From an uncultured bacterium (GTDB taxonomy: Bacteria > Omnitrophota > Omnitrophia > Omnitrophales > Aquincolibacteriaceae), in contig CAYLPP010000010.1 of assembly GCA_964385615.1 (NCBI GenBank), forward strand, positions 21,565 to 85,564: DNA of 64,000 bases. The letters run 5' to 3'. The notes under the pieces were generated by a model. The model saw only the letters and a list, made by a program, of their open reading frames with translations. It was not told the origin of the DNA and ran no database searches. Positions 1,200 through 36,730 of this stretch are shown here, in pieces. Position 1 is the stretch's first letter; each line of letters begins with the position of its first letter. The position numbers and the translations under genes were made by a program.

Positions 1200-1209
1200 T
1201 CGTAGATTG

Positions 1210-1248
1210 CAAAAATAAGCACCCGCTTCGTAAAGAAGCGAGTGCGGG
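1210..1248 (-). terminator. Candidate intrinsic terminator or attenuator hairpin between the JAMM gene and actA
   Basis: On the minus-strand RNA the sequence is cccgcacucgcuuc-uuua-cgaagcgggug, an 11-bp stem with one G-U pair, followed immediately by uuauuuuug. Confidence 0.45.
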
Positions 1249-1330
1249 TTGGCCCGCACATTTTGTGCAAACCTGCCTGAATTTTAAAAGCGTTATTGTA
1301 CCAAAAACCCTGCAGAAATAAATGTTTAAA

Positions 1331-4184: not shown

Positions 4185-4233
4185 GCATCCCTTTACCGGC
4201 AAGCGCACAGCTTCTTTAGCTGCGGCTTTGCTG

Positions 4234-4262
4234 TACTTGCGCATCGGCGCATCGGCGCAGCT
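4234..4262. repeat. Second copy of the ACTTGCGCATCGGCGCA hairpin element, with an internal GCATCGGC duplication, immediately 3' of the OMP stop codon
   Basis: Read directly from the sequence. 17 of 18 positions match the element at 11594-11615. Confidence 0.55.
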
Positions 4263-17732: not shown

Positions 17733-18251
17733 TTAAGCGCGAAGGTAAGGCAAAAGCGCCCAGGCCGATAAAATCAGAGAAGCCCAAAAAGCCTGAAGGA
17801 GCTTCAGCGGTAAGCCGGCGGTTATTTTAGGCGGTCTAAAAAAAAGCGCCCGCTCATTGAAGCCCAGCATTATCATTCGAAAGCCGGAAAACAGCAGGGC
17901 GGATTGTAAGATCTCTTTCAAGAACTGAGAACCGGCACCAGGGCTCAGATAACGGAAACTTAATCCGCAAACCGCCAGAAAAAAAACGAACGGCCGGCGG
18001 GCGAGAGAACAAACGGCAAAAACCGCGGGAATCATCCAAAGCGCGAAATCTTCCCGGCTGAAAGAAATAAAATTCAGAAGGAGAACGGCCGTAAGAGCGA
18101 TTACGGCCACGCACGCAAAAATGCGGAAAGTATCTTCCAGAATTTGGCGCGGAGAAACGCGTTCTTCCGCTAGACAGAATAGAAAACCAAAAGCGATTGA
18201 GGAGAAAAGAATGGAGTTCACACTTCCGCCGCCGATTGAAATTTTTTCCAT
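17733..18251 (-). CDS. RnfA/NqrE-like small polytopic membrane subunit (divergent)
   Basis: About 170 aa with 5-6 TM segments. Its C-terminal ...LFSGFRMIMLGFNERAL resembles the RsxA ...YGFSAAVGFSLVM...IRERL region. The start is set at the internal MEKISIGG. Confidence 0.4.
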   Translation of the reverse strand: MEKISIGGGSVNSILFSSIAFGFLFCLAEERVSPRQILEDTFRIFACVAVIALTAVLLLNFISFSREDFALWMIPAVFAVCSLARRPFVFFLAVCGLSFRYLSPGAGSQFLKEILQSALLFSGFRMIMLGFNERALFFRPPKITAGLPLKLLQAFWASLILSAWALLPYLRA

Positions 18252-18760
18252 CCCGAACCGGTAAAAAGCGCTTTCTGCTTTCGGCTGGCCGGCCAGACCA
18301 TCGCGGGAAGAATCAGCAATGCTAAACTCCCGGGAACCCTCTGAAAAAGCGGCCACTCGGCCTGACGCCCTAAAACTTCCTGCGTAATGCCAAGATAAAT
18401 TACAAGGGCCAGAAAACAAACCGCTTTAATAAAAACTGACGTGGGATCGCGGTGCTTCTCCTGCCGGCCCGCGAGCGGAAAAAGCAGAAGACAAACGCTT
18501 AAGGCCGCCGCCCCGCGTGAGTATTGAAATCCGGGGAGAACGGAAACGGCGCAGCAAACGGTTAAAACCGTAGCCCACGAGATCAGGCGTTTTGGAAAAA
18601 GAGGGGTCAGAATCTCAAAAAGAAGCGCCGTCGCGACAAATACCGCGGCAACCGAAAAACCCGCCTCAAGGGAAGATCCGAACTGAAGCAGTCCGGGAAG
18701 AATGGGAAAAACGGGAGCCGCAGCTTCAGAGAAAGAAGGGAGAAGGTATTTTTTTTTCAC
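18218..18760 (-). CDS. RnfE/NqrD-like small polytopic membrane subunit (divergent)
   Basis: 180 aa polytopic membrane protein whose start overlaps the RnfG-like stop by 4 nt. The call rests mainly on context plus topology. Confidence 0.35.
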   Translation of the reverse strand: MKKKYLLPSFSEAAAPVFPILPGLLQFGSSLEAGFSVAAVFVATALLFEILTPLFPKRLISWATVLTVCCAVSVLPGFQYSRGAAALSVCLLLFPLAGRQEKHRDPTSVFIKAVCFLALVIYLGITQEVLGRQAEWPLFQRVPGSLALLILPAMVWPASRKQKALFTGSGWKKFQSAAEV

Positions 18761-19263
18761 GCGAAAGTTCCTTCGCTGGCTTTTTCAATAAAAAGCGCGC
18801 GTCGGCTGTCAAAGAATTCCTGGGCGCCGGAAACCAAGTCCGGAGCAAGTCTGTTTTCGGGGACAAGCGCTTTTCTGATAAAACTGGGCTTCAATCCCGT
18901 AACCCTGCCCTCGAGATCGATCCCAATCAAAACCGGATTGACGCCTTCACCGTCTGAGTTCTCCGAAATCCAAAAAGCAAAACCCGTGAGCTTATTAACC
19001 CTGACAGGTTCTGATACTTCATCCAGCCGCACATCCTGCTCATGCCGGGCCGGAAAAATCCGGCGGCCTTCGATTTCAAAAGATTCTTCTTCCGGATGAT
19101 TGCTGAAAGAAGGCAGAACCGTTTTTAAATCGAGCTCGGTCTTCGAAGTTTTTTCCGCCGCTGTGTCGACCTTCAATAAAAAGACGCCAGCGGCCAGCGC
19201 CGCCGCGTAAACAATCAAAAATAAATACTGCAGAATGACGATTCTTCTTTTCTTTTCAGACAT
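18757..19263 (-). CDS. RnfG/NqrC-like periplasmic FMN_bind-fold subunit lacking the flavinylation threonine
   Basis: N-terminal TM anchor and an FMN_bind-like core (VLIGIDLEGRVTGLKP). The D-x-x-[ST]-G-A-T site reads DLVSGAQ, so the flavin-accepting Thr is replaced by Gln. The start is set at MSEKKRR (19263). Confidence 0.55.
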   Translation of the reverse strand: MSEKKRRIVILQYLFLIVYAAALAAGVFLLKVDTAAEKTSKTELDLKTVLPSFSNHPEEESFEIEGRRIFPARHEQDVRLDEVSEPVRVNKLTGFAFWISENSDGEGVNPVLIGIDLEGRVTGLKPSFIRKALVPENRLAPDLVSGAQEFFDSRRALFIEKASEGTFA

Positions 19264-20095
19264 TTGGAAAAACTTTCGATTTTTCACGGGCCGGAAACGG
19301 CTGGGTGAGCGCGTCAAACCAAGGGGTTAAAACATTCACGCTCAGAATAGCCAACGCGCAAGCCAAAAAAAGCGGCAGTCCATTCCCATATAAAACTACC
19401 GTTAAAAACCCGGCTGTTAGAGAAAATACGCAATGCCCGTAAAGACTCAGCGGAGTCGTTTCGGCATCTGTAATAATAAAAAACCCCGTGATTATCCAAA
19501 CGCTTATATCGCGCGGAGAAATTGGGATTCCAAACCAAAAAATGCCGGTAAATACTGCCGCTAGATAAATAAAAGGAATCTGCGGGCGGAATACTTTGCG
19601 CGCGGCCAACCAAAAAACCCCAGGGATCAGCAGGGCCGGAACCATCCAGGCAATGATTGACGTTGGTAATTCTTGATTCGAAAAAACATTCTGCCCTTGC
19701 AGAAGAATCGCCAGAAAAAGAAAAGCCGCGGGAACGGGATGCGCAAAACAGGCTCCCTGACCGCCTAAAAAAGTTCTCGCGAACAAAAGAGAGAAAAAAA
19801 GCCCCGCGGCGGCGGCTGGAAGGGCGGTGCTTGCCGGAATAAGAGCTGTGTAAAGCAGCGCGTATAAAACCAGACTTCCTTTTTTAAATTCTTCCGATTT
19901 TTTCAGCACTAGTCCGGAAAAAAATTCATGCCCGGCACAAGCCAGCAAAGATACCGCCATGATAAACAACCTGGAAGGTTCCGCGAAAAATGAAAGGCCT
20001 ACAGAAGGCAAAAGAACCGCGGCAGCTGCCCAGTTCAGACTCTGAACCGTCTGAGAAGACCGGATATGGGGATGCGTGCCGGAACTGTAGCTCAT
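19256..20095 (-). CDS. RnfD/NqrB-like membrane subunit lacking the flavin-bearing loop
   Basis: The C-terminal FFIITDAETTPL matches the RnfD FFMLTDPVTSP motif, and GQGACFAHP aligns to the GQNPFNPAM region. The protein is 279 aa versus about 350 aa for RsxD. The roughly 60-aa loop carrying the S/TGAT FMN-attachment site is absent. Confidence 0.6.
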   Translation of the reverse strand: MSYSSGTHPHIRSSQTVQSLNWAAAAVLLPSVGLSFFAEPSRLFIMAVSLLACAGHEFFSGLVLKKSEEFKKGSLVLYALLYTALIPASTALPAAAAGLFFSLLFARTFLGGQGACFAHPVPAAFLFLAILLQGQNVFSNQELPTSIIAWMVPALLIPGVFWLAARKVFRPQIPFIYLAAVFTGIFWFGIPISPRDISVWIITGFFIITDAETTPLSLYGHCVFSLTAGFLTVVLYGNGLPLFLACALAILSVNVLTPWFDALTQPFPAREKSKVFPNV

Positions 20096-20104
20096 AAACG
20101 CCCG

Positions 20105-21397
20105 CTATTTTTTAGCAGGCTGCGCGGTTTTCTGAAGTTCTTCGTCAATCACTCTTTGAAAACTCGCGAAAGGCTGAGCCCCCTTCATAATCCGGCCGTT
20201 CACAAAAACCGCCGGCGTTCCTGTGACTCCGGATTCAATCCCTTTCTGAATATCTTTCTGCACAATATCCTTGGGCTCTTGAGAATCCAAACATTTCTTA
20301 AAATCTTTCATTTTTAAACCTGTTTGCTCAGCCAGCGAAATAAGCAAAGCGTCATCTTTGGTAACATTGAGATTTTGAAAGAGCTTCTGATGGTACGGCC
20401 AGAATTTCCCTTGTTGATTCGCGCATTCCGAAGCTTGATGGGTGCGGTCCGAACCCGCGTGCATCTGCAGCGGAAAATGCCGCCAGACTTTCCGGACTTT
20501 CCCCTGATATTGAGTCATCACTTGCTGAATCGTAGGTTCAAGGCGCTGGCAAAACGGGCAATGAAAATCGCTGAATTCCACAAGAAGAACCGGGGCTTTT
20601 TCAGGACCTTCGGAAGGCCGTCCCGCGAGGTCATTGAATTCGACAATTTTAGGCGGTTCGGGCGGAGCTACGGGAGCGGCCGCGGAAGGCGCTGCGGCCG
20701 GGGGCTGTTTTCCCGGATTTAGAATTGCTTCAATTTTATTTACAAAAGCCTGATAAGAAAGTGCTCCGGACGATTTTTGACCGTTGATGAAAAAAGTCGG
20801 AGTCCCGTCTACCTGAAGGTCTCTGGCTTCTTTTAAATCAGCGTCGATAGCCTTTTTAGGCCGGCCGCTGGCAAGACAGCTTTCAAACGCCGCGGAATTT
20901 AAGCCGATCTGAGCGGCGATTTGCCGAATAACCGCAGCATCCGGCCGGTCGGCGCGGGCGTATACCGCATCATGAAAAGGCCAGAACTTTCCCTGCTCGT
21001 GCGCGCAAACCCCGGCCTGATGAACCAGATAAGAACCCTGCCCGGGAGTTTCAGAAAGCGGAAGGTTTTTATAAATAATGTGAACTTGATTCGGATAATT
21101 ATTAAAAACCTGGAGCAGTGTAGGGGCCGCTTTTTTACAATATGGACAGAAGAAATCCGAGAAATCAACAATCGTCACGGGCGCGTTGGCTGGACCCCGG
21201 TCAGGCGAAGGTGTCTGGACCGGCTTTTTAACCTGAGCCGCAAGCTGAAGAGTCCCGGTAGCTGGAATCAATGGATTGGCCGTGGGGGCAGGCACGGGAG
21301 CTGAAGCTGTTTTATGATAAGTCACAAAAGCAACGACAGTCGCAAGGGTCAAAGCAGTACCGCAGACAAATCCGGAAAGAAAAGGATTGGGTTTCAT
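20105..21397 (-). CDS. Membrane-anchored tandem DsbA-like thiol:disulfide oxidoreductase (two thioredoxin-fold domains)
   Basis: N-terminal TM anchor followed by two DsbA-family domains. Each has a CxxC active site (FSDFFCPYCKK and FSDFHCPFCQR) and the VCAHEQGKFWPFHD / CANQQGKFWPYHQ helical-insert signature. The two are separated by a Pro/Ala-rich linker. Confidence 0.75.
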   Translation of the reverse strand: MKPNPFLSGFVCGTALTLATVVAFVTYHKTASAPVPAPTANPLIPATGTLQLAAQVKKPVQTPSPDRGPANAPVTIVDFSDFFCPYCKKAAPTLLQVFNNYPNQVHIIYKNLPLSETPGQGSYLVHQAGVCAHEQGKFWPFHDAVYARADRPDAAVIRQIAAQIGLNSAAFESCLASGRPKKAIDADLKEARDLQVDGTPTFFINGQKSSGALSYQAFVNKIEAILNPGKQPPAAAPSAAAPVAPPEPPKIVEFNDLAGRPSEGPEKAPVLLVEFSDFHCPFCQRLEPTIQQVMTQYQGKVRKVWRHFPLQMHAGSDRTHQASECANQQGKFWPYHQKLFQNLNVTKDDALLISLAEQTGLKMKDFKKCLDSQEPKDIVQKDIQKGIESGVTGTPAVFVNGRIMKGAQPFASFQRVIDEELQKTAQPAKK

Positions 21398-21403
21398 AGA
21401 TTC

Positions 21404-22648
21404 CTATTTTGAGTTCGCGTAACGGATTAACTCGGTCATGGGCCGTTTGGACGGACACACGTAGGAGCAATTTCCGCATTCCACGCAATATTCTGAACCA
21501 TACTGCCGCGCCAGATTAACTCTGTCATTTTCGGCAGCAAGACTGATCATAGCCGGAGAAATTCCGGCCGGACAAACATCCAGACATCGCCCGCATCGAA
21601 TACAAGGTTCCGGGACTTCCGGCCTGGAGGCCTCAATCGGCAGAGCCAGAATCCCCTGGGTTCCAGGCACAACAACAGCATCCAGACTCTTTTGAGTCTT
21701 TCCGCTCATGGGACCGCCCATGATTAATTTTCGGGGTTCACGCATAAAACCTTTACAAGTTTTAACGACGCTTGAAAAATCCTGCCCCATCCGGGCCCAG
21801 ACATTTTTAGGCTCCATCACGCATTCCCCGGAAACAGTCACAACCCGCTCAAGAAAAGGCTTATGGAAAACCGCGGCTTCATACACCGCGAAAACCGCGG
21901 ATGGATCAAAAATACAGGCGGAATCCAACCCGGCCCGGCGAGAAAGAATATTTTCAGTGTCCGGGTAACCGCATGGAATCATCCGCACATCAGCGTGTTC
22001 CCATTTCAAAAAATAGATTTTACTTTTCAAAAGTTCCGCGGCTTCACGTTTATCCTCTTCGGTCACGATCAGAATATTTTCAGCACCGCACGCGCGCCTG
22101 AGAATTTCAGCGCCTTTCAAAATTTCCAGAGGATGCGACATGATCAAAGAGTAATTCGAGGAAAGATACGGCTCCGACTCACAAGCATTCACAACGAGCG
22201 TCTTAGCCGGGGCTTTGATTTTAAGATGCGCGGGCGTCATTTTCAGATCCGTATCCATCAGGCCCATTTCCCTGAAAAATTCCGGCCACCGGTCCGCCGG
22301 CATTTTTTCCCAGTCCTGCTCTTTTCCGAATCCCGGTATTTTTTCATCCTGGCCGTCAGAAAGAATTTCAATGGCCTGCGATCTTCCAAAAACCGGGTGC
22401 TCTATTTTAAGAATTTTCGAGACTTTTCCAGAGACGGACGCGTGAAGCGCGACATTGGAAATATGCCCCGGCTCGGCGATTTTTTGCCCCATAAGAACAG
22501 CATCCCCCGCTTTCACGCAGGGATGGGCTTCAAAACCGGTGGATTGCAGAAGGGGAACGCAAATTTTAGCGGGAGAGGAAGAAGGGCGGTGAATCGTCCA
22601 GATCAGGAAAAAAATTTCTTTTTTGTTTTCGAGCTTTAAAAGTTTCAT
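21404..22648 (-). CDS. RnfC-like subunit with two [4Fe-4S] ferredoxin motifs but no GGAGFP flavin/NADH motif
   Basis: Aligns to E. coli RsxC in the barrel-sandwich region (CVKAGDAVLMGQ), the ...LVVNACESEPY... region, VTVSGE...NVWARMG and IMGGPMSG. It has two CxxCxxCxxxCP motifs (CIRCGRCLDVCPA and CVECGNCSYVCPS). The position of GLGGAGFPTGVKL reads GLMDTDLKMTPAHLKIK. Confidence 0.6.
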   Translation of the reverse strand: MKLLKLENKKEIFFLIWTIHRPSSSPAKICVPLLQSTGFEAHPCVKAGDAVLMGQKIAEPGHISNVALHASVSGKVSKILKIEHPVFGRSQAIEILSDGQDEKIPGFGKEQDWEKMPADRWPEFFREMGLMDTDLKMTPAHLKIKAPAKTLVVNACESEPYLSSNYSLIMSHPLEILKGAEILRRACGAENILIVTEEDKREAAELLKSKIYFLKWEHADVRMIPCGYPDTENILSRRAGLDSACIFDPSAVFAVYEAAVFHKPFLERVVTVSGECVMEPKNVWARMGQDFSSVVKTCKGFMREPRKLIMGGPMSGKTQKSLDAVVVPGTQGILALPIEASRPEVPEPCIRCGRCLDVCPAGISPAMISLAAENDRVNLARQYGSEYCVECGNCSYVCPSKRPMTELIRYANSK

Positions 22649-22666: not shown

Positions 22667-23740
22667 TCAGGACACGAGATCAATCCAACCGCCGCCCAAA
22701 ACCCTGTTACCGTCATAGAGAACCGCGCCCTGCCCCGGAGTAATGGCATCCTGCGGCTCTTCAAATTCAATGGCAATACTCTGATCATTTAAAACCCTGA
22801 TTTCCGCGGGAGCCTTGGTGTGCTGTGAGCGGATTTTAACATGCGCCTTAAAAAGATTTTCACCTGGTTTCACAAACCAATTCATACGGCCCACATTGCA
22901 CCGCAAGCCGTACACTTCTTCTTTTGTGCCGACAACCACTTCATTTGTTTCAGGCAATGTTTCAAGCACGTAAAGGCGTTCTGAATTTCCTCCGCCCAAG
23001 CCGCGCCGCTGGCCGCGGGTGTAATTAAAAAATCCTTCGTGTTCGCCAAGAACCTGGCCCGCGCGGGTACGGATAATTCCTTTACGGGGAGCCGCTTCCT
23101 TATATTCGCGTTTCAGAAACTGACCGTAATCATTGCTCGGAATAAAGCAGATTTCCTGAGAATCCGGCTTTCCGGCAACTTTCAGCCCCATTTCAGCCGC
23201 CTGAGCCCGAATCTCCGCCTTGGTGAAACCTCCAATAGGAAGGTAAAGCCGGTTCAGCACTTCCGGGTCTAAAGGAAACAGAACATACGACTGATCTTTT
23301 GAAGCATCGGCACCTTCTGATAAAACCGAACGGCCGGTTTCGTCACGTTCAAGTTTCGCGTAATGTCCGGTGGCAATCGCGTCAAAACCCAATTCCTGGG
23401 CGCGCTTTAAAAATAGACGAAATTTGATGTGCTCATTACAAGCGACGCAAGGATTGGGTGTACGGCCCTTGAGGTATTCGGAAGCAAAATAATCAACAAC
23501 GTGTTTTTTGAAATCTTTTTCAAAATTAAAAACCCAGTAGCGGATTCCCAGTGATTCAGCGACATCACGCGCGTCTTCAACGCCGGAAAGACCGCAGCAG
23601 GCCCGGGTATTCAGATCCGCGCATTCATTGGAAGCCCACGTGCGGATCGTGGCCCCCGCGACCTCATGGCCCTGCTTCTGTAAAAGAGCCGCGGCCACGG
23701 AACTGTCCACTCCGCCGCTCATGGCGACAAGTATTTTCAT
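22667..23740 (-). CDS. mnmA: tRNA-specific 2-thiouridylase
   Basis: MKILVAMSGGVDSSVAAALL PP-loop, 357 aa, and a MnmA-type C-terminal domain. Confidence 0.88.
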   Translation of the reverse strand: MKILVAMSGGVDSSVAAALLQKQGHEVAGATIRTWASNECADLNTRACCGLSGVEDARDVAESLGIRYWVFNFEKDFKKHVVDYFASEYLKGRTPNPCVACNEHIKFRLFLKRAQELGFDAIATGHYAKLERDETGRSVLSEGADASKDQSYVLFPLDPEVLNRLYLPIGGFTKAEIRAQAAEMGLKVAGKPDSQEICFIPSNDYGQFLKREYKEAAPRKGIIRTRAGQVLGEHEGFFNYTRGQRRGLGGGNSERLYVLETLPETNEVVVGTKEEVYGLRCNVGRMNWFVKPGENLFKAHVKIRSQHTKAPAEIRVLNDQSIAIEFEEPQDAITPGQGAVLYDGNRVLGGGWIDLVS

Positions 23741-28215: not shown

Positions 28216-29423
28216 ACCTTTCGAAGAAGAATCGCGGCTGCATGACCGCCGAATCCCAACGAGTAGGATAACGCTGTTTGAATTTTCGCGGGCCGGGCTT
28301 TTAGCGGTGTGTAATCCAGGTCACATTCCGGATCAGGTTTTTCCAGATTGGCCGTAGGCGGAACAAAACCGTATTCCATCGCTAAAAAAGCCGCGATCAC
28401 TTCAACGGCACCCGAAGCCCCGAGCATATGGCCGGTAATCGATTTAGTGGAAGTCATGGGAATTTTAAAAACTCCGCTGCCGAAGAATTTTTTAAGCTGG
28501 CAGGTTTCGTATACATCCCCAAGCTTGGTCGCGGTACCATGAAGATTAATATGCTGAATTTCAGACCGGCTGACCCCGGTTAATTCAAGCGCTTGTTCTA
28601 ACGTCCGTTGTAAGGTATCCCCGTCAGGATCAAATTGGACAGGATCATACGCGTCCATACCATAAGCTCCTCCGAGAATTTCTCCGTAGATTTTAGCGCC
28701 TCGAGCTTTAGCGCTTTCCAAAGTTTCCAAAAAAATCACCCCGCCCCCCTCACCGACCCCGAATCCATCCCGGCGCAAATCAAAAGGACGCATGGGACCG
28801 CGCGTAAGGGCTTTCATATTATGGTAAGCAGCCATCATGAGCGGTGTTACTGAAGCGTCGCTGGAACCCGCAAGGCAGTAATCCGTGTAGCCATCTGCGA
28901 CCATACGGGCACCCTCAAGAATCGAAGCCGTTCCCGTGGCGCAAGCCAGAACATAGCATTTAGCGGGACCTTGAAGTTTCCATTTCCGCGCGATCCATTG
29001 AGCGCCAAAATTCGGAACAGAATTACAGTAAATGCGCGCGCCCAGAATCGCACTTGGATTTTTTTTAAACCGCTCTGAGAAACGGTCAAGCGTGTGAACA
29101 CCGCCCTTGCTTGAACTAACCGCCATTCCAACACGATAAGGGTCTACTTGAGACGGATCAAACTTCGCGTCCCGCAAAGCTTCATCCGCGGCCGCAACCG
29201 CGTATTGAATGAATGGATCCAAAAGATGGGTGCCGTGCACATGGGGAACAAAATTTTTAACTTCGTAGGCGTATTTAGCGGGAAAATCTGGAATATCAAA
29301 AGAACGGATGGGACCTCCGCCATGATTACCCGCGCGAAGATTGCTCAGGAATTCAGGAAGACTGCTGCCCGCCGGACTGACCACGCCCATTCCGGTGGCA
29401 ACCACACGGCGCTTAAAACTCAT
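28212..29423 (-). CDS. Beta-ketoacyl-ACP synthase I/II-like (FabF/FabB family)
   Basis: 403 aa with a KAS I/II-type thiolase fold: active-site Cys region (ACATGT), HGTATKLGD and [14 protein letters not shown]. Overlaps bioF by 4 nt. Confidence 0.75.
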
Positions 29424-31237
29424 TTCCCCCCGTCGGCCTGGAGAAAAATATTCTGAGAGTTTAAAAACGAAAGGAGTTTTTTGGCGTTTTTTGAAGCGGA
29501 ATCTTTTTCACTTAAATCCAAATCAACAATACTGCTGCGGAATTGATTGGGACCCACGTTTACGATAAAAATACCGGAACGGTCCGTGACTTCCTGAAGA
29601 AGATGAAGTTCCTCATCATTCAAATTACTGGCTGTTGCCAGCACAATCAGGCCGGCATCCATTAAAATGTGCCCGACTTCGCCCAAACGGCGGACGTGTT
29701 CACGGCGTTTGGATTTATGCCCTTCAATATCCGCGTCTAACCCGCGAAGAAGATTTCCAATACCCAGAAAATAGGTTTTAGCTCCATTTTCAAAAAGAGT
29801 TTTTTCTACTTCCTTAGCGATCGTCTTTTTATCGACTCCCACTTTACCGGTCAAAAGAACCAGCTTGGGCTGGTGACCATACTTAGCCTCCCGCACCTTG
29901 GGTTCGACAACGCTGAAATCCCATTTCATTTCGCGTTCGTGCACCTGCTCGCGAACATCCGCCTGGTCATCGCGCACCAAAGCGGAAATAATTCCTCCGC
30001 CGGCAATATCGTATTGGTCTACGATCACAAACCGGCCCGTAGCTTCAATCGCATCCGCCGTATCAAAAGCAAGCGGGCGGGCGCATTCAAGCACGCACTG
30101 GGCAACATCATGACGCTCAATGATTTTCTTCTCAGCCTTCTTCAGGTCAGAAGCATCAATGATCTTTTTGATGGTTTTTAAATAAACAGGAACGGCAGCG
30201 CTTCCAATCTTGAGTTTGTATTCCTTGTCCTGAACCATTGGACTCTTGCCCATCCAGAAGATCTCAACCTGAATCAGCGGACCAACCAACGGCTGGGTTT
30301 CCTCCAGCTTGCACATAATATCGCCACGCTGAATATAAATCTGTTCTTTCAGGGTGAATCCAGCGCAATACCCGGCAACCATTTTTTTAGGTGACGGAGC
30401 ATTGAAAATTTCGATACTTTTAATTTCAGTCCGCTTGTTGGATGGCAGGAAGACGACCTTATCACCGACAGCAATGGTTCCCGCTTCAATCTTACCTGCC
30501 ACGATACGGCGGTCATCCCCCTCTTCCGTAAACTTGTAAACACCCTGCACCGGAAGACGAAAAGGTTTTTGCGCCAAGTCCGGAGCTTTTTCAAACAAGT
30601 CCAGAACCTCGAGCACGGATGGGCCTTTAAACCAGGAAAGATTTTTAGAGCTTTCGATCAGATTTTCACCGTGCATCGCGGCGAGCGGAATAAAAAACTT
30701 AGGCTCGACGCCGATCTGCTTCAGAAACTTGCGGTATTCAATCTGAATATCGTTAAAAGCTTTTTCGCTGTAATTAACCAAATCCATTTTGTTAACACAA
30801 ACCGCGATCTGGCGGATGCCAAGCATGGAAAGCAGGTAGCCGTGACGTTTAGAATTTTCCTGCACGCCTTCTTTAGCGTCAATAATCAAAAGAGCGGCTT
30901 CAGCTCGCGCGGCACCGCTAACCATGTTTTTCAGAAATTCAATGTGTCCGGGAGCATCGATAATAATGTATTCGCGTTTCTTGCTTTTAAAAAAGCAGCG
31001 GGCTGAATCAATCGTGATTCCCTGAGCTTTTTCATCTTTAAGAGCATCGAGAAGGAAAGCGTATTCGAAGGGTTTGGAATTGCGTTTGCACTCAGCGCGA
31101 ACCTGATCCAGCTTACCCTGAGGAAGCGAACCTGTATCCGCGAGCAAACGGCCAATGACCGTGCTTTTGCCATGGTCCACATGACCCACGATCACAATAT
31201 TCATTTTTAGGTCATTTTTTTCAGCCGTCTTAGACAT
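29420..31237 (-). CDS. cysN: Sulfate adenylyltransferase subunit 1 (CysN GTPase) fused to a C-terminal APS-kinase-like domain with degenerate catalytic motifs
   Basis: N-terminal GHVDHGKST / DAPGH / NKMD GTPase motifs. The C-terminal roughly 175 aa align to CysC ([22 protein letters not shown] versus [22 protein letters not shown]). The P-loop reads GKVGVDKKT instead of GLSGSGKST, and the LDGD motif is LGIG. Confidence 0.8.
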
Positions 31238-32112
31238 TACATGTATCCTTCTTTACGAAGAGTCTCAAGACCGCCGTCTTCAGCATCCTGCGCGCGGCCG
31301 GCACGCTCAGCAATGTTCGCAAATTTACCGGTCTTAAGTTCTTGAATAATCTCTTTAATATTTTTTGCCGTGGATTCCACTGAGGAAGTGCACGGGTAAC
31401 AGCCCAGGGAACGGTAACGTCTACCGGTACCTTGATCGAAATAAAGAGGAACTACCGGAATGTTTTCCGCATCGATATATTCCCAAATATCGAGCTCCGT
31501 CCAATCAAGCAAAGGATGAACCCGGATATGCGTTCCTGGCGCGAAATCCGTTTTGAACTGGTTCCAGAGTTCAGGCGGCTGATCGCCGATATTCCAGTCA
31601 TTGCGTTTATCGCGAGGAGAAAAATAGCGTTCTTTTGACCGGCTGCCTTCTTCATCGGAGCGCACGCCGACGATCACGCCGGTATAAGGTTCTTTATTTT
31701 CATCAACAACGTATTTTTTAAGCTCATGATCCATACGGTAACGCGTCCACTCGCCAGAAAGGGTTTTACGAAGAGCTTCCGTCTTTAAAGTTTTGCAGCA
31801 GCTGAGGCGATCGAGATTACCATCCGGATAGGTACGCTTTTCTCTAAGCGCATCCACGTTTTGTCCGTAAACCATGTTCAGCTTCCATTCCAGAGCGAGC
31901 CGGTCACGGTACTGAATCATTTCCGGGATCTTGTAGGCTGTATCAATATGAACAAGGGGAAAGGGCACGTGGCCGAAAAACGCCTTGCGGGCCAGCCAGA
32001 GTAGAACAGTGCTGTCTTTGCCGATCGACCAGAGCATCGCCAGGTTTTTAAAGTTGGCGTAGGCCTCGCGCAAAATATAAACGGATTGAGCTTCAATCTT
32101 TTCGAGATGTGT
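31237..32112 (-). CDS. cysD: Sulfate adenylyltransferase subunit 2
   Basis: [46 protein letters not shown] aligns to the E. coli CysD N-terminus. The ORF track extends it to a TTG at 32157. The stop overlaps the cysN start. Confidence 0.85.
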
Positions 32113-32204
32113 CATAAATGAAGAGTCCGTATTATAGCACAACTCCTGAATTTGCAAAGAGTTGTAATCATGAATCCCTATTGATGCGGTAGGGATTTAT
32201 CCGG

Positions 32205-32921
32205 CTAGATTTTTCGGGATTCGAAGTGAAAAACCTGTCCCGTGACCCCTTTCATGGCGTCTGAAGACAGATAAACCAGAAAATCCGCGACTTCTTCGGG
32301 GTCGGAAATCCGGCCAAGAGGGCTGGCTTCGGTCTGGTTGAGCAAGACCTGCTCAGGAAGATTTTCAGTCATAGAGGATTTCATGAACCCCGGATTGACC
32401 GCATTGACTAGAATGCTTTTTTTACCAAGTTCCTGGGCTAGAGATTTCGTCAAACCAATCAGTCCGGCCTTGGCGGCAGAATAATTCGAAATTCCGACAC
32501 CGCCTTGAATCGCGGCACGGCTGGTAATCATTAAAATTTTGGCCGGAGGCTCTGCCCGAAAAAGAGACAGCAAAAGTTTTTTCGTCAGGTAATACGGAGC
32601 TTTTAAATCCACCGCCATGACGTGATCCCATTCCTCTTCCGTCATATTCTGCAGAGTGTGGTCACGCACCGCGGCCGCATTATGAATCAAAACATCCAGC
32701 GTTTTTATTTTTTCTTTGAAGGTCTTAACAAAAGCGTCAATAGCGGCGGTGTCGGCAAGATTAAGGGGAAAGCCTTCCGCTCCGCTTTTTTGAAGCTCTT
32801 GTGCCTCAGTAAGATTTTGATGGTAGGTAAAAAAAACGCGGGCACCTGCCGCTGCCGCTTTTCGGACAAAGCAGCTTCCCAATCGGCTTGTGCCTCCCGT
32901 GATCAGGATATTTTTATTCAA
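32205..32921 (-). CDS. Short-chain dehydrogenase/reductase (FabG-like)
   Basis: TGGTSRLG Rossmann motif, NAA, and the YSAAKAG catalytic Tyr-x3-Lys; 238 aa. The start overlaps the bioB stop (ATGA). Confidence 0.75.
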   Translation of the reverse strand: MNKNILITGGTSRLGSCFVRKAAAAGARVFFTYHQNLTEAQELQKSGAEGFPLNLADTAAIDAFVKTFKEKIKTLDVLIHNAAAVRDHTLQNMTEEEWDHVMAVDLKAPYYLTKKLLLSLFRAEPPAKILMITSRAAIQGGVGISNYSAAKAGLIGLTKSLAQELGKKSILVNAVNPGFMKSSMTENLPEQVLLNQTEASPLGRISDPEEVADFLVYLSSDAMKGVTGQVFHFESRKI

Positions 32922-33943
32922 ACTTGCGCGGGATCTTTCTTGGAATCAGCCGCCGGGCGTTTTGCAGGTTCAAAGCCGGCGCGCTTCAGCATCTCAAAAT
33001 CGTCTTTCATAGGATTCGCAGAAGTCGTGAGATACCCGCCGACAATCAAACCATTCGCACCGCCCTTAAGCGACATTTCCTGGTATTGATTCCCCAAATT
33101 CACTTCCCGTCCTCCAGCCAGTTTAATGTTGGCTTTCGGATGGATAAACCGGTAAACGGCGATGGTTTTAACCATTTCCAGCGGATCGGGCGCCGGTACA
33201 TTTTCTAATGGCGTTCCAGGACGAGGGTTCAAGATATTCATCGGAAGACAATGAGGCGCGAAAGGCTTAAGTTCAAAAGCCAGTTTCACGCGGTCTTCAC
33301 GGGTTTCTCCCATGCCAAGAATTCCTCCGGAGCAAATTTCCATATTCCCGTCCTGAAGCATCTTCAAGGTTTCAAGTCTCTTATCATAAGTATGCGTGGT
33401 CACAATCTTAGGATAAAACTCGCGGGAACTCTGAAGGTTATCATTAAAACGGCGGACCCCCGTTTCCTTCAAGCGCTTCACCCGTTCTGGAGTCAAAAAT
33501 CCCAAAGACCCGTCTAAATTCATGGAGGTTTCCGCTTTTAGGCGCGTATAAATTTCGATGACCTGATCGAATTCTTTCTCAGACAATTCCCCGCCGCTGG
33601 TCACAACGCAGAAATTATGAGCACCTTTCTTTTCGAAATCCTTAGCCGCCGCGACCACTTCTTCGGTCGGCATCATCTGATAGCGGTTAACCCGGGTATC
33701 AAAACGCACGGACTGCGAACAAAAACCGCAATCTTCTCCGCAAAGATAACTCTTGGCGTTAATCAAAGAACAAAGTCCCGGCTCATTGGAGTTAAAATTA
33801 AAATTAATTTCCCGCGCCGCTTCCAAAAGCGGTTCCATGTCCGGCCCCGCCGGATCAATTTCGACGAGCTTCATCGCTTCTTCAAAAGAAACTTCTCCGC
33901 CGCCCAAAACTTTGTTTTTGAGTTCTTCGATCAAATTTTTCAT
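32918..33943 (-). CDS. bioB: Biotin synthase (radical SAM)
   Basis: CGEDCGFCSQS radical-SAM cluster motif. NDNLQSSREFYPKIVTTHTYDKRLETLKMLQDGNMEICSGGILGMGET aligns to E. coli BioB [47 protein letters not shown]. Confidence 0.8.
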   Translation of the reverse strand: MKNLIEELKNKVLGGGEVSFEEAMKLVEIDPAGPDMEPLLEAAREINFNFNSNEPGLCSLINAKSYLCGEDCGFCSQSVRFDTRVNRYQMMPTEEVVAAAKDFEKKGAHNFCVVTSGGELSEKEFDQVIEIYTRLKAETSMNLDGSLGFLTPERVKRLKETGVRRFNDNLQSSREFYPKIVTTHTYDKRLETLKMLQDGNMEICSGGILGMGETREDRVKLAFELKPFAPHCLPMNILNPRPGTPLENVPAPDPLEMVKTIAVYRFIHPKANIKLAGGREVNLGNQYQEMSLKGGANGLIVGGYLTTSANPMKDDFEMLKRAGFEPAKRPAADSKKDPAQV

Positions 33944-33950
33944 TTAATTT

Positions 33951-34193
33951 TCAGCCTTCAACAATATCCCCGATGACCGGATCCACACCCACGCCTTTTT
34001 CGCGCAAGCCTTTCTCGGCTTTGTCGATATCCGATTGGGCGCCTTCCAGTTCGATCGTGGCTTCACCCGCTTCATGCGAAATCTTGGCGCGGCGAATATT
34101 TAAGAGCAGGTTGTTGTCACGGGCCACCAGGTACATGATAGGCTCCTTGATCAATTTCTGAGGAAAAACGAGGTGGAACGCTTTTTTGGGCAT
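33951..34193 (-). CDS. Stand-alone NIL-domain (MetN C-terminal-like, ferredoxin-fold) protein
   Basis: About 80 aa resembling the C-terminal NIL domain of methionine-ABC ATPases (NNLLLNIRRAKI...GEATIELEG). The start is set at the internal Met to avoid overlap with the carrier gene. Confidence 0.45.
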   Translation of the reverse strand: MPKKAFHLVFPQKLIKEPIMYLVARDNNLLLNIRRAKISHEAGEATIELEGAQSDIDKAEKGLREKGVGVDPVIGDIVEG

Positions 34194-34194
34194 A

Positions 34195-34470
34195 TTACCC
34201 TCCGGCAATCGCGGGAACGATAGAAATCTGATCCCCGTCTTTCAGAGACGTTTCTTCCTGCTGAAGAAAGCGGATGTCTTCTTCGTTCAGGTAAACATTC
34301 ACGAACCGGCGAACTTTTCCGGTATCGTCGCAAAGGCGGTCCTTGATGCCTGGAAAATTTTTCTCGAGCTGATTGATCATGTCCTTGACGTTGCCGGCCT
34401 GGATATCAACTTCACCCTGATTATTGGTCAGTTTCTGAAGCGGTGTTGGAATTCTTACTTTAATCGCCAT
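34195..34470 (-). CDS. MoaD/ThiS/CysO-type sulfur-carrier protein ending in Gly-Gly
   Basis: 91 aa with a beta-grasp-sized ORF whose C-terminus is ...[10 protein letters not shown] followed by stop. It lies between the NIL protein and the PLP enzymes. Confidence 0.75.
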
Positions 34471-34500
34471 GAGATTTTCTCCCTTACTAAGATTTTTAAA

Positions 34501-35751
34501 TCAGACTTTAACAGCCGCGCCAGACCCCATAACCTTGCTGTCAAAAGAAGACAGATTCGGCTCAATAAGCGAGGGCTCGCCCACGCTGTCCTGGATCGCT
34601 TCCTGCGTTTTTAGACCATTTCCGGTAATCGCCAAAACGGTTGACCCGGTTTTCGGAATGACGCCCTGTTCAATCAGTTTCTTGGCGGTGGCTACGGTTA
34701 CTCCGCCGGCTGTTTCGGTGAAAATACCTTCAGTGCGCGCCAAAAGCTTGATGCCTTCCCGGATCTCATCATCTGAAACAATTCCGGCGGCGCCGCCGGA
34801 ATTTAAAATAACATCTTTCGCGTAATAACCATCGGCAGGATTGCCAATCGCGAGCGATTTGGCAATCGTTGAGGGTTTAACGGGCCGGATCACATCTGCT
34901 TTGGCTTGAATTGCGGTAGAAATCGGCGAACAGCCTTCAGGCTGAGCGCAGAAAACCTTGGTCTGCACTTTATTTTCGAGCAGGCCGAGTTTTTCAAATT
35001 CTTTTAAAGCTTTCCAGATTTTTGTGATTAAAGAACCGCTGGCAGCCGGAGCCACAATATGATCAGGGGCGCGCCAACCAAGCTGTTCAGCAATTTCAAA
35101 ACCCATAGTCTTGGAACCTTCAGCGTAATACGCGCGCAAATTAATATTCACAAAACCCCAACGGTACTTAGCCGCGATCTCAGCGCATAAACGGTTAACA
35201 TCGTCGTAGTTTCCGTTCACGGCGACCAGGTTCGGAGAATAAACAAGACTGGCGATAATCTTGGTTTTTTCCAACGTCGCCGGAATAAAAATGTAGCGCT
35301 TGAAACCCGCCCATGCCGCATTGGCGGCAACCGAATTCGCTAAATTGCCGGTTGAAGCGCAAGCAACCGTATCAAAACCCAATTCCCGGGCGCGGGACAA
35401 AGCGACTGCCACAACACGGTCTTTAAACGACCAGGTTGGATGGCATACAGAATCATCCTTAATATAGAGTTCTTTAACCCCAAGCTCACGGGCAAGCACA
35501 TCCGCTTTAACCAGCGGAGTAAACCCAGAATAAAAACCAGCGCTGGGCTCTCCGTCGATCGGCAGTAATTCACGGTAACGCCACAAACTTTTCGGACCCT
35601 TAAGAATTTTATCCCGGGTCAAAGTTTTTTTTATGCCGTCATAATCGTAAACCGCCTCAAGAGATCCAAAGCAGTACTCACAGACATAGAGCGCCTGCTT
35701 GGGAAATTCGCGGCCGCATTCACGGCATTTTAACGCTTTCAAGAAAGACAT
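34501..35751 (-). CDS. Threonine-synthase-family PLP enzyme with an N-terminal Cys4 zinc ribbon (candidate carrier-protein-dependent homocysteine synthase, or cysteate synthase)
   Basis: CRECG...CEYC ribbon, SFKDR PLP-lysine motif, and a ThrC-like fold over 416 aa. Its neighbours are the GG carrier and the APS/PAPS reductase. Confidence 0.6.
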   Translation of the reverse strand: MSFLKALKCRECGREFPKQALYVCEYCFGSLEAVYDYDGIKKTLTRDKILKGPKSLWRYRELLPIDGEPSAGFYSGFTPLVKADVLARELGVKELYIKDDSVCHPTWSFKDRVVAVALSRARELGFDTVACASTGNLANSVAANAAWAGFKRYIFIPATLEKTKIIASLVYSPNLVAVNGNYDDVNRLCAEIAAKYRWGFVNINLRAYYAEGSKTMGFEIAEQLGWRAPDHIVAPAASGSLITKIWKALKEFEKLGLLENKVQTKVFCAQPEGCSPISTAIQAKADVIRPVKPSTIAKSLAIGNPADGYYAKDVILNSGGAAGIVSDDEIREGIKLLARTEGIFTETAGGVTVATAKKLIEQGVIPKTGSTVLAITGNGLKTQEAIQDSVGEPSLIEPNLSSFDSKVMGSGAAVKV

Positions 35752-35765
35752 TTATCTCACCTTTT

Positions 35766-36722
35766 TTAGACTTTGAAGGCCTCATCCATGCTGAGATACC
35801 GTTCGCCGGTATCACAAATCACGGTGACCACATTTTTACCAGGACCAAGCTCACGGGCCAGTTGAAGCGCCGCCCATACGTTGGCACCCGCTGAAATACC
35901 GCACAGAAGCCCTTCTTTTGAAGCAAGCTCCATGGAAGTTTTCCAAGCATCCTGATCTTCAACCTGAATAACTTGATCGATCACATTACGGTTTAGAACT
36001 TCCGGAACAAAACCCGCGCCGATGCCCTGAATTTTATGTTTCCCCGGAGCACCTCCGGAAAGAACAGGCGAGGTTTTCGGCTCCACAGCAACGACTTTAA
36101 TAGCCGCGTTTTTCTTTTTGAATACTTCCCCGCAGCCTGTCACGGTTCCGCCGGTACCCACGCCAGCGACAAAACCATCCACTTTCCCATCCAGGGCTTC
36201 CCAGATTTCTTCAGCCGTGGTTTCACGGTGAATTTTAGGGTTGGCCGGATTGGCAAACTGCTGCGGAATAAAACTGTTTTTATTCTGTTCGGCAATTTCT
36301 TTAGCCTTGGCAATCGCGCCTTTCATGCCTTCCGCGCCCGGCGTCAGCACAAGCTCGGCTCCGTACCGCTTCAAAAGCTGACGGCGCTCCACGCTCATTG
36401 TTTCCGGCATAGTCAAAATCAAACGGTACCCTTTCACGGCGCAAACCAGCGCGAGACCAATTCCGGTATTGCCTGATGTAGGCTCTACAATGACCGTGTC
36501 TTTATTAATCAGCTTTTTTTCTTCCGCGTCCCGAATCATGCTTAAACAAATCCGGTCCTTAACGCTTCCCCCCGGATTAAAAGATTCCAGTTTTCCATAA
36601 ACCGCGGCCATTTGCGGATTCGCTAATTTATTGATGCGAACTAACGGAGTGTTACAGATCAACTCAAGCATATTAGAGGCTAATGCGGGCTTGCTGTGCT
36701 TCACGGTCGTCGTCATAATCAT
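35766..36722 (-). CDS. cysK: Cysteine synthase (O-acetylserine/O-phosphoserine sulfhydrylase; CysK/CysM family)
   Basis: SVKDR PLP lysine, [10 protein letters not shown] and GIGAGFVP motifs; 318 aa. Confidence 0.8.
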
Positions 36723-36730
36723 CTCCCTCG

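What the first reader, a model, noticed from the sequence alone, without database searches (positions are those of the whole stretch)
17733..22648. Rnf/Nqr-like membrane complex that appears flavin-free, lacks RnfB, and carries an embedded tandem-DsbA gene
Six tightly packed minus-strand genes run RnfC-like, tandem DsbA, RnfD-like, RnfG-like and two small RnfE/A-like subunits. Adjacent gaps or overlaps are 6, 9 and 4 nt, then 4 nt and 34 nt of overlap. The arrangement recalls rnfCDGEA, but three things are missing or changed. There is no RnfB-like polyferredoxin. The FMN motif is absent from the RnfC-like protein. The covalent-FMN sites are absent from both the RnfD-like and RnfG-like proteins. 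What remains is a cytoplasmic two-[4Fe-4S] module, a membrane core, and a membrane-anchored extracytoplasmic protein with two CxxC thioredoxin-fold domains inserted between rnfC and rnfD. One possible reading is a transmembrane electron conduit linking cytoplasmic Fe-S carriers to periplasmic thiol/disulfide chemistry. That would be a DsbD- or DsbB-like role carried out by an Rnf scaffold instead of an NAD-coupled ion pump. I do not know of a described system with this composition.
Basis: partly seen in the sequence, partly recalled or inferred. Interest (0 to 1): 0.85.

Follow-up and report, generated by a model that had tools for sequence, protein, structure and literature searches.

The report
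Cofactor-stripped Rnf-like complex with embedded DsbA
An uncultured bacterial lineage carries a relative of the Rnf/Nqr membrane redox pump that has lost almost all of its usual electron-carrying sites, and in this branch it has gained a membrane-anchored double DsbA protein, so it may connect cytoplasmic iron-sulfur chemistry to disulfide chemistry outside the membrane, though this is untested.

Summary

The RnfC FMN loop and both flavinylation sites are absent. I add that the four Cys ligands of the RnfA/E [2Fe-2S] centre are absent too. No RnfB-like gene lies in the window or in 309 kb of related loci. The two RnfC [4Fe-4S] motifs and the RnfD Asp that lines the riboflavin/Na+ site survive, so "flavin-free" is not shown.

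The same six-gene cluster recurs in at least six other metagenomic assemblies. More distant relatives carry 2- or 3-domain DsbA genes at the same position, and the DsbA-bearing clusters group together in a neighbour-joining tree.

A sister clade of at least ten loci has only C-D-E-A, with no DsbA and no G. The core therefore has a function that does not need DsbA.

No carrier is visible in the membrane subunits, and the direction is open. I found no description of this system in the literature. I rate it a new variant of a known kind, interest about 0.7.

The parts
21404..22648 (-). RnfC-like cytoplasmic Fe-S subunit (414 aa). It has the RnfC_N, truncated NuoF-like and SLBB domains plus a C-terminal 2x[4Fe-4S] ferredoxin domain. 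The FMN loop is absent. Family-specific Cys residues are C44, C156 and C276.
20105..21397 (-). Membrane-anchored tandem DsbA (430 aa). It has an N-terminal hydrophobic helix and Pro/Ala-rich linkers. DsbA domain 1 carries CPYC and domain 2 carries CPFC. Each domain has a Thr-cisPro (GTP) motif and one extra conserved Cys pair.
19256..20095 (-). RnfD-like membrane subunit (279 aa). It lacks the periplasmic loop that carries the flavinylated Thr. It keeps Asp210, the equivalent of C. tetanomorphum RnfD Asp248.
18757..19263 (-). RnfG-like remnant (168 aa, ATG at 19263, 8-nt overlap with the D-like stop). It keeps the N-terminal TM helix and the first half of the RnfG fold. The SGAT flavinylation region is deleted and the protein has no Cys.
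18218..18760 (-). RnfE-like six-helix membrane subunit (180 aa). No sequence hit to any library. The fold matches RnfE, RnfA and NqrE. The canonical Cys26 and Cys109 ligands are absent.
17733..18221 (-). RnfA-like membrane subunit (162 aa from the GTG at 18221, 4-nt overlap with the E-like stop). The fold matches RnfA and NqrE. The canonical Cys26 is absent, and a Cys near the canonical Cys114 position is present in 8 of 9 family members.

Best explanation
This is a lineage-specific derivative of the Rnf/Nqr machine. Its four-subunit core consists of a cytoplasmic RnfC-like protein with two [4Fe-4S] clusters docked on an RnfD-like subunit and an RnfE/RnfA-like membrane pair.

The core has lost the whole RnfB to RnfA/E to RnfG electron-entry branch:
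- there is no RnfB;
- the [2Fe-2S] ligands of RnfA/E are gone;
- the RnfG FMN site is gone.
It has also lost the NADH/FMN site of RnfC and the covalent FMN of RnfD. Only the RnfC(Fe-S)-RnfD branch keeps recognisable redox or ion-site residues.

In the clade that contains this window, the core additionally retains a truncated RnfG. It has also recruited a membrane-anchored protein with two DsbA domains, encoded between C and D.

The most likely role in this clade is to exchange electrons between the cytoplasmic Fe-S module and the CxxC pairs of the extracytoplasmic DsbA domains. The exchange would pass through a site in the RnfD-like subunit, either a non-covalent flavin or a quinone, occupying the position of riboflavin or FMN in canonical RnfD. 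The thiol-disulfide pairs would replace the lost periplasmic flavins as the outer redox station.

What is shown: subunit identities, which motifs are lost or kept, and the conserved gene linkage. What is inferred: that the proteins form one complex, that electrons flow between Fe-S and CxxC, the carrier inside D, and the direction. The direction could be reoxidation of an oxidising DsbA, as DsbB, VKOR or MauE do. It could equally be reduction of an isomerase-type DsbA, as DsbD or ScsB do.
For: - Gene order and tight coupling. The gaps are 6 and 9 nt, followed by overlaps of 8, 4 and 4 nt.
- The same six genes occur in six further assemblies, with D-like identity down to 28-31%.
- Multi-DsbA genes sit at the same position in the more distant L023, L024 and L026, and the DsbA-bearing clusters group together in a neighbour-joining tree.
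- The C-like protein (57-71% identity) and the Dsb protein (46-60%) are the best conserved of the six. All eight Dsb Cys and the Fe-S Cys of the C-like protein are conserved. D, G, E and A are 28-54% identical. This fits C and Dsb being the working ends.
- Asp210 of the D-like protein is invariant in 18 family sequences. In C. tetanomorphum RnfD the equivalent Asp248 flanks the riboflavin and the putative Na+ site, and riboflavin lies 11.7 A from the [4Fe-4S] cluster of RnfC (PMC9588780).
- Literature precedents, Meheust et al., PMC8238504: partial NQR/RNF-like systems that use a single branch for one-way transmembrane electron flow, and P19 gene clusters in which an FMN-binding gene is replaced by a thioredoxin-like gene.
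- The organism is a diderm with a periplasm: the window encodes an Omp85 protein and a multihaem cytochrome c.
Against: - A sister clade of at least 10 loci has C-D-E-A with neither DsbA nor G. The core function therefore does not require DsbA.
- There is no conserved Cys, His pair or known cofactor motif in D, G, E or A that could bridge Fe-S and CxxC.
- Binding of a flavin or quinone by the D-like subunit is not demonstrated.
- Residues that line the outer FMN site in canonical RnfD are lost. Asn90 is replaced by a hydrophobic residue and Glu185 lies in the deleted loop.
- No multimer model could be made.
- In the oxidative direction, electrons would have to move uphill towards low-potential Fe-S clusters unless the transfer is coupled to an ion gradient, and the canonical coupling cofactors are missing.
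- Gene order in this lineage is unusually conserved for housekeeping genes too (bioA-bioD-mnmA...pilT-polA). Linkage alone is therefore weaker evidence here than usual.
Confidence: 0.4

Rival explanations
1. The Rnf-like C-D-E-A core has its own function that does not involve DsbA. One example would be moving electrons between a cytoplasmic one-electron donor such as ferredoxin and a membrane quinone through the RnfC Fe-S clusters and the RnfD site, as in the last steps of Na+-NQR. On this view the multi-DsbA gene is an ordinary periplasmic folding catalyst that is merely co-transcribed with the core in one clade.
For: - Type II loci have only C-D-E-A.
- The C-like proteins of all clades share the same lost FMN loop, the same extra Cys residues and the same Fe-S motifs.
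- Housekeeping synteny around the cluster is very rigid in this lineage.
- mnmA also appears only in the DsbA-bearing clade, directly upstream of C, which shows that unrelated genes can become fixed in this operon.
- In NQR, electrons leave riboflavin in NqrB for quinone (review PMC12174285).
Against: - The Dsb gene sits inside the cluster, between C and D, and not at an edge. Spacing is 6-20 nt or overlapping.
- It has stayed there while D diverged to under 30% identity and while its own domain number changed from 2 to 3.
- The G-like remnant, a periplasmic subunit, is found only in DsbA-bearing clusters.
Confidence: 0.3
2. The complex is no longer an electron-transfer enzyme. It would be an ion channel or transporter, or an envelope-assembly scaffold, derived from Rnf. 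RnfD/NqrB resemble urea and ammonia channels. The Fe-S clusters of the C-like subunit would act as a redox or oxygen sensor or play a purely structural role.
For: - Every cofactor site of the membrane core is lost.
- The Asp of the putative ion site is invariant.
- The structural similarity of RnfD to urea and ammonia transporters is noted in PMC9588780.
Against: - Both complete CxxCxxCxxxCP motifs are kept in 23 of 24 C-like sequences. Three further family-specific Cys residues (C44, C156, C276) are conserved. This level of conservation is more typical of an active redox module.
- The presence of CxxC proteins in the operon points to redox chemistry.
Confidence: 0.15
3. It is a normal ferredoxin:NAD+ Rnf complex. 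On this view rnfB and apbE lie elsewhere in the genome and the motifs were only thought missing because of misalignment.
For: The C-like protein scores above the TIGR01945 rnfC cutoff. The rest of the genome could not be examined.
Against: - The losses are seen in HMMER alignments to solved RnfC and RnfD chains and in MAFFT alignments to E. coli and clostridial proteins.
- They are deletions of whole loops, not substitutions.
- The canonical Cys ligands of RnfA/E, invariant in 9-10 canonical sequences, are absent.
- The D-like protein scores 58 bits against the TIGR01946 cutoff of 207.
- No ferredoxin-motif ORF other than the C-like gene occurs in 309 kb of 28 related loci.
Confidence: 0.03
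4. The cluster is a decaying remnant of an rnf operon and has no function.
For: Loss of nearly all canonical functional motifs.
Against: - The reading frames are intact and translationally coupled in more than 25 loci from different samples.
- 150 invariant residues are shared by seven C-like proteins, and there are family-specific invariant motifs such as KSKIYFLKW, GECV and MREPRK.
- The E-like and A-like proteins keep invariant motifs across 9 sequences.
Confidence: 0.02

Closest known systems
Rnf complex (RnfABCDGE/RsxABCDGE). Solved structures: C. tetanomorphum 7ZC6, A. vinelandii 8AHX, A. woodii 9ERI.
   Same: - Gene order C-D-G-E-A.
- RnfC domain architecture with two [4Fe-4S] motifs.
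- RnfD fold, including the Asp of the riboflavin/Na+ site.
- The N-terminal half of RnfG.
- The RnfE/RnfA fold.
   Different: - No RnfB.
- No FMN loop in C.
- No flavinylation site in D or G.
- No [2Fe-2S] Cys ligands in E or A.
- D, E and A are 30-70 residues shorter than their canonical counterparts.
- A tandem DsbA gene is inserted between C and D.
- The 2025 review (PMC12174285) describes the cofactors of the membrane core as strictly conserved between RNF and NQR.
Na+-NQR (NqrABCDEF)
   Same: It derives from Rnf by loss of RnfB. NqrA is an RnfC homologue that has lost cofactors, a precedent for a stripped C subunit. Electrons leave through the NqrB (RnfD-like) subunit.
   Different: NQR keeps the covalent FMNs of NqrB and NqrC, riboflavin and the NqrD/E [2Fe-2S] centre, and it gained NqrF. 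None of these is present here. Here the C subunit keeps its Fe-S clusters, whereas NqrA has none.
Partial 'NQR/RNF-like' systems of Meheust et al. 2021 (PMC8238504)
   Same: They use only one of the two transmembrane branches of the Rnf/Nqr core and are proposed to give one-way electron flow to an extracytosolic acceptor.
   Different: Those systems are an NqrB/RnfD protein fused to an NqrF-like NAD-binding domain. They are ApbE-associated and flavinylated. They have no RnfC, RnfE/A or DsbA.
DsbA recycling systems: DsbB, VKOR and MauE (oxidising); DsbD/CcdA and ScsB-ScsC (reducing)
   Same: A membrane machine is encoded next to a DsbA-type periplasmic protein. The DsbA domains resemble MdbA, BdbD and ScsC.
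   Different: All known partners move electrons through their own membrane-embedded Cys pairs, plus a quinone in the oxidising systems. The membrane subunits here have no conserved Cys, and the cytoplasmic end is an Fe-S protein.

Membership tests
Rnf complex (RnfABCDGE) | RnfC with an NADH/FMN site (G-x-G-G-A-x-F-P loop) | tested here: not met
   The loop is replaced by DTDLKMTP in the window and is absent in all 24 family C-like sequences.
Rnf complex (RnfABCDGE) | RnfC C-terminal ferredoxin domain with two [4Fe-4S] motifs | tested here: met
   CIRCGRCLDVCP and CVECGNCSYVCP are present. TIGR01945 scores 282.7 against a cutoff of 245.95.
Rnf complex (RnfABCDGE) | RnfD with covalent FMN on a Thr of the periplasmic (S/T)xAT loop | tested here: not met
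   About 70 residues, including E. coli GISQATPL and the equivalent of C. tetanomorphum Thr153, are deleted. TIGR01946 scores 58 bits against a cutoff of 207.
Rnf complex (RnfABCDGE) | RnfD membrane fold with the conserved Asp of the riboflavin/Na+ site | tested here: met
   PF03116 scores 101 bits. hhalign gives 99.7%. Asp210, the equivalent of C. tetanomorphum Asp248, is invariant in 18 family sequences.
Rnf complex (RnfABCDGE) | RnfG FMN_bind domain with a flavinylated Thr (SGAT) | tested here: not met
   Only residues 16-125 align to RnfG (93.4%). The region carrying DQFTGAT is deleted, and there is no FMN_bind Pfam hit.
Rnf complex (RnfABCDGE) | RnfE/RnfA pair (Rnf-Nqr fold) | tested here: met
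Rnf complex (RnfABCDGE) | Four Cys in RnfA/RnfE that hold the intramembrane [2Fe-2S] centre | tested here: not met
   Canonical RnfE Cys26 and Cys109 and RnfA Cys26 and Cys114 are invariant in 9-10 canonical sequences. No invariant Cys exists in the E-like or A-like families.
Rnf complex (RnfABCDGE) | RnfB polyferredoxin as the electron-entry subunit | tested here: not met
   The C-like gene is the only CxxCxxCxxxC ORF in the 64-kb window and in 309 kb of 28 related loci. The rest of the genome could not be examined.
Na+-NQR | NqrF (FAD/[2Fe-2S]) together with flavinylated NqrB and NqrC | tested here: not met
   There is no NqrF-like gene in the cluster. The nqrA and nqrB NCBIfam scores are far below their cutoffs. 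The flavinylation sites are absent.
DsbA/BdbD/ScsC-type thiol-disulfide oxidoreductase | Thioredoxin fold with a helical insertion, a CxxC active site and a cis-Pro loop | tested here: met
   Two Thioredoxin_4/DSBA domains are present. The CPYC and CPFC motifs and the GTP motifs are invariant in 7 relatives. PDB hits are MdbA/DsbA, BdbD and ScsC. Redox activity and direction cannot be tested here.
DsbB / VKOR / MauE / DsbD-type DsbA partner | Membrane protein with conserved redox-active Cys pairs (plus a quinone site in the oxidising systems) | tested here: not met
   There is no conserved Cys in D, G, E or A. Any resemblance in function would have to rest on a different chemistry.

The most novel reading that the evidence does not exclude
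The cluster encodes a previously unknown way of recycling periplasmic DsbA-type proteins. An Rnf-derived membrane complex would wire their CxxC pairs to cytoplasmic [4Fe-4S] clusters through a flavin or quinone site in the RnfD-like subunit, with no Cys relay in the membrane. [quoted passage not shown]
Probability: 0.3. Interest if true: 0.9.

Novelty: new variant of a known kind. Interest (0 to 1): 0.72.

Why it matters
Rnf and Nqr are regarded as flavin-based redox pumps whose membrane-core cofactors are strictly conserved (PMC12174285). A conserved family that keeps the protein scaffold but only the RnfC Fe-S clusters would show that the scaffold can be reused for a different chemistry. It would also give a natural "minimal" version for working out which parts do what.

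If the link to DsbA is functional, the cluster would be a new route connecting cytoplasmic Fe-S carriers to extracytoplasmic thiol-disulfide chemistry. [quoted passage not shown]

The hypothesis is directly testable, by complementing E. coli dsbB or dsbD mutants and by cofactor analysis of the expressed complex.

Tried and rejected
- **Sequence identification of the E-like and A-like proteins.** Pfam, NCBIfam and PDB profile searches gave nothing. hhalign against canonical RnfE and RnfA profiles was not significant (2.3% and 12.4%). Only fold comparison identified them.
- **Paralogy of the E-like and A-like proteins.** hhalign did not support it.
- **A thiol relay or surviving [2Fe-2S] site in E/A.** With two sequences, Cys69/90/115 of E and Cys37/71/85 of A looked conserved. 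This was rejected once 9 and then more sequences were aligned.
- **Genome scan.** A scan of 185,579 species genomes with the D-like alignment found only one family member, plus canonical clostridial Rnf operons.
- **Taxonomy of the organism.** It could not be established. The sources give no names, and record titles say only "uncultured bacterium". Omnitrophota was considered, but nothing supports it.
- **N-terminal extension of the L023 and L026 Dsb proteins.** The roughly 200-residue extension looked SurA-like by eye, but Pfam gives only E about 0.1. It is not G-like.
- **Promoter and terminator scans.** Hits around the cluster were at chance level.
- **Rfam.** It found only two tRNA-Ser genes in the window.
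- **Literature.** Searches for Rnf combined with DsbA or thiol-disulfide found no description of such a system.


Full report
**1. What is in the sequence**

Six ORFs lie on the minus strand between 17733 and 22648. I refined the gene models by comparison with orthologous loci:
- C-like, 21404-22648
- tandem DsbA, 20105-21397
- D-like, 19256-20095
- G-like, 18757-19263
- E-like, 18218-18760
- A-like, 17733-18221

The junctions are gaps of 6 and 9 nt, followed by overlaps of 8, 4 and 4 nt. The D/G overlap ATGTCTGA can be read directly. The A-like start at GTG 18221 follows from the MN(S/T/L)xxF N-terminus shared by all nine family members. mnmA ends 18 nt upstream of the C-like start. A pilT-like gene with a strong AAGGAG ribosome-binding site starts 127 nt downstream of the A-like stop.

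**2. Subunit identities**

The C-like protein passes the NCBIfam rnfC threshold (282.7 against 245.95 bits). It aligns end to end with the RnfC chains of three solved Rnf complexes at E 1e-55 to 1e-60.

The D-like protein passes Pfam PF03116. It matches a canonical RnfD profile at 99.7% but fails TIGR01946 (58 against 207 bits).

The G-like protein has no library hit. Its only PDB hits are three RnfG chains at E about 0.2. A seven-sequence family profile matches an RnfG profile at 93.4% (E 2.5e-7), but only over the TM helix and the first half of the domain.

The E-like and A-like proteins match nothing by sequence. I collected their few homologues and predicted structures from nine-sequence alignments:
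- The next hits in both searches are unrelated helical proteins with shorter alignments.

The Dsb protein has an N-terminal hydrophobic anchor, Pro/Ala-rich linkers and two Thioredoxin_4/DSBA domains (CPYC and CPFC). Each domain has a Thr-cisPro motif and one further conserved Cys pair. Its nearest solved relatives are actinobacterial MdbA/DsbA, BdbD and ScsC proteins.

**3. Which cofactor sites are lost and which are kept**

*Lost:*
- The glycine-rich FMN loop of RnfC (GIVGMGGATFP in 7ZC6) is GLMDTDLKMTP here. It is absent in all 24 family C-like sequences.
- The periplasmic loop of RnfD that carries the flavinylated Thr is deleted. This is Thr153 in C. tetanomorphum and lies in GISQATPL in E. 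coli.
- The part of RnfG that carries the flavinylated Thr is deleted.
Canonical RnfE Cys26 and Cys109 and RnfA Cys26 and Cys114 are invariant in my canonical sets. The E-like and A-like families have no invariant Cys at all.
- No other ORF with a ferredoxin motif exists in the 64-kb window or in 309 kb of 28 related loci, so there is no local RnfB.

*Kept:*
- Both CxxCxxCxxxCP motifs of the C-like protein.
- Asp210 of the D-like protein, invariant in 18 family sequences. It corresponds to Asp248 of C. tetanomorphum RnfD, which flanks the riboflavin and the proposed Na+ site (PMC9588780).

"Flavin-free" is therefore not established, because a non-covalent flavin in D cannot be excluded.

The C-like family also has its own conserved Cys residues. 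C44 and C276 are present in 24 of 24 sequences and C156 in 23 of 24. C156 lies in the NxCE(S/P)EPY motif that replaces the canonical NxAECEPY of the former FMN pocket.

**4. Distribution**

The family is rare:
- A word-indexed search of 5.8 billion proteins found 2, 8 and 9 clusters for the D-, A- and E-like proteins.
- A scan of one genome per species for 185,579 species found a single family member.

Wherever enough context is available, the gene order is identical: mnmA-C-Dsb-D-G-E-A-pilT-polA. This holds for L001, L015, L016, L018, L019/L020 and L022. Identity to the window proteins is 57-71% for C and 46-60% for Dsb. It is only 28-44% for D and 32-54% for G, E and A.

A metagenome scan with the C-like alignment then revealed a wider family with C-like identity of 37-49%. 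HMM searches and ORF maps show the following:
- L023 and L024 have C, a 773-aa protein with three CPFC DsbA domains, then D, E and A, with no G.
- L026 has C, a 590-aa two-domain DsbA protein, then D, G, E and A.
- Ten loci (L027/L041, L028, L030, L031, L033-L037, and L044) have only C-D-E-A, with no DsbA and no G within 8 kb on either side.
- L038-L040 are more divergent.

All loci lie in the same housekeeping neighbourhood (bioB-like, SDR, fabF-like, bioF, bioA, bioD ... pilT, polA, coaE). This is therefore one lineage with very stable gene order.

In a neighbour-joining tree of the C-like proteins rooted on canonical RnfC, the DsbA-bearing clusters group together and the C-D-E-A clusters are their sister group. 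This is a distance tree without support values, so it is only indicative.

The exhaustive HMMER search with the D-like profile points to a still broader group. Of the best 150 hits, 75 are short proteins (about 245-310 aa) matched in one stretch, meaning they lack the flavinylation loop. One of them sits in a different context, after YdjC and an amidohydrolase (L017).

**5. Interpretation**

In canonical Rnf, electrons enter through RnfB. They cross the membrane through the RnfA/E [2Fe-2S] centre to the FMN of RnfG. They then return through the FMN and riboflavin of RnfD to the RnfC Fe-S clusters, FMN and NAD+ (PMC9588780; PMC12174285).

In this family the whole first branch is without cofactor sites, and so is the NADH end. 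Only the RnfC(Fe-S)-RnfD segment keeps recognisable residues.

In the window's clade, the periplasmic flavin stations are replaced in the operon by a membrane-anchored double DsbA, and a truncated RnfG persists only in DsbA-bearing clusters. There are precedents. Partial NQR/RNF-like systems with a single branch have been proposed to act as one-way conduits. FMN-binding and thioredoxin-like proteins substitute for each other in other extracytosolic systems (PMC8238504).

I therefore consider the most likely reading to be that, in this clade, the complex exchanges electrons between its cytoplasmic Fe-S module and the DsbA CxxC pairs through a site in the D-like subunit. My confidence in this is about 0.4.

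What is shown is composition, motif loss and retention, and conserved linkage. Complex formation, the carrier in D, and the direction are inferences.

The direction is open. The DsbA domains resemble both oxidases (MdbA, BdbD) and reductase- or isomerase-type proteins (ScsC). The organism makes a multihaem cytochrome c and has an outer membrane, so both an oxidising and a reducing periplasmic pathway would be useful to it.

**6.

The C-D-E-A clade shows that the core has a function without DsbA. No conserved Cys or other carrier is visible in the membrane subunits. Gene order in this lineage is conserved even for unrelated genes. One example is mnmA, which appears directly upstream of C only in the DsbA-bearing clade. 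I therefore give substantial weight to two rivals:
- The core has its own role, for example Fe-S to quinone transfer as in the last steps of NQR, and the DsbA gene is only co-transcribed (0.3).
- The complex has a non-redox role (0.15).

A normal Rnf with its missing parts encoded elsewhere, and a decaying relic, are both contradicted by the alignments and by the conservation.

**7. Novelty**

Full-text searches for Rnf together with DsbA or thiol-disulfide oxidoreductases found no description of such a cluster. The 2025 review of RNF/NQR states that the membrane-core cofactors are strictly conserved, and it mentions neither thioredoxin nor disulfide.

I classify the finding as a new variant of a known kind: an Rnf/Nqr-superfamily complex with a radically reduced cofactor set and, in one clade, a DsbA partner.

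Noticed in passing
window 22667-23740 (-); L001, L016, L018, L019, L022, L023: mnmA (tRNA 2-thiouridylase) lies directly upstream of the C-like gene on the same strand. The gap is 18 nt in the window, and the genes overlap by 4-17 nt in four relatives. mnmA is present in the DsbA-bearing loci where the upstream region could be read. It is missing from the C-D-E-A-only clusters, where bioD abuts C. In L026 it is unclear: no intact mnmA ORF was called there.
   Followed up: partly
window about 8000-34500; L001, L022, L023, L027, L028, L034-L037: Long-range gene order is conserved in every relative, even at 40-50% protein identity. The order is bioB-like radical SAM, SDR, fabF-like, bioF, bioA, bioD, (mnmA), the Rnf-like cluster, pilT, polA, coaE, rho, rpmE, prfA, prmC, murA. 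The Rnf-like cluster may be co-transcribed with the biotin genes.
   Followed up: partly
window 21404-22648 (C-like residues C44, C156, C276, C298): Conserved Cys residues lie outside the ferredoxin motifs. C44 and C276 occur in 24/24 family sequences, C156 in 23/24 and C298 in 22/24. C156 lies in the motif that replaces the canonical NxAECEPY of the FMN pocket. These residues could form a new metal or disulfide site where FMN used to bind.
   Followed up: partly
proteins P0005-P0150; L017; L044: Half of the best 150 hits to the D-like profile are short RnfD-like proteins matched in a single stretch, so they lack the flavinylation loop. At least one sits in an unrelated context (YdjC, amidohydrolase, D-like). 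A sizeable unnamed subfamily of loop-less RnfD proteins seems to exist beyond this lineage.
   Followed up: partly
L023 9502-11823, L024 9496-11823, L026 9327-11099: The multi-DsbA proteins of distant relatives carry a shared extension of about 200 residues (37% identical between L023 and L026). It lies between the membrane anchor and the first DsbA domain. The only hints are weak SurA_N and rotamase hits (E 0.04-0.1). It is not G-like.
   Followed up: partly
window 29420-37489 (-) and 1331-1810 (-): A dense set of sulfur-metabolism genes: CysN/APS-kinase fusion, CysD-like, PAPS-reductase family, ThiS-family carrier, NIL-domain protein, two PLP (PALP) enzymes, and a prokaryotic JAB domain protein. 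This resembles a thiocarboxylate-dependent cysteine pathway next to sulfate activation.
   Followed up: partly
window 546-1259 (-) and 4261-5577 (-): A multihaem cytochrome c (Cytochrome_C7/c3 families, a CLDCH motif) and an Omp85-family protein. The organism is therefore a diderm that matures c-type cytochromes in a periplasm.
   Followed up: no
window about 52900-61900: A chromosomal origin region. rnpA, yidC, mnmG, parA and parB are on the minus strand, and dnaA, dnaN, gyrB and gyrA on the plus strand. These gene names were assigned by eye from ORF N-termini, not by a library search. The cumulative GC skew reaches its minimum near 52-54 kb.
   Followed up: no
window 2589-4310 (-): A 573-aa ORF with no Pfam hit, upstream of the Omp85 gene.
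   Followed up: no
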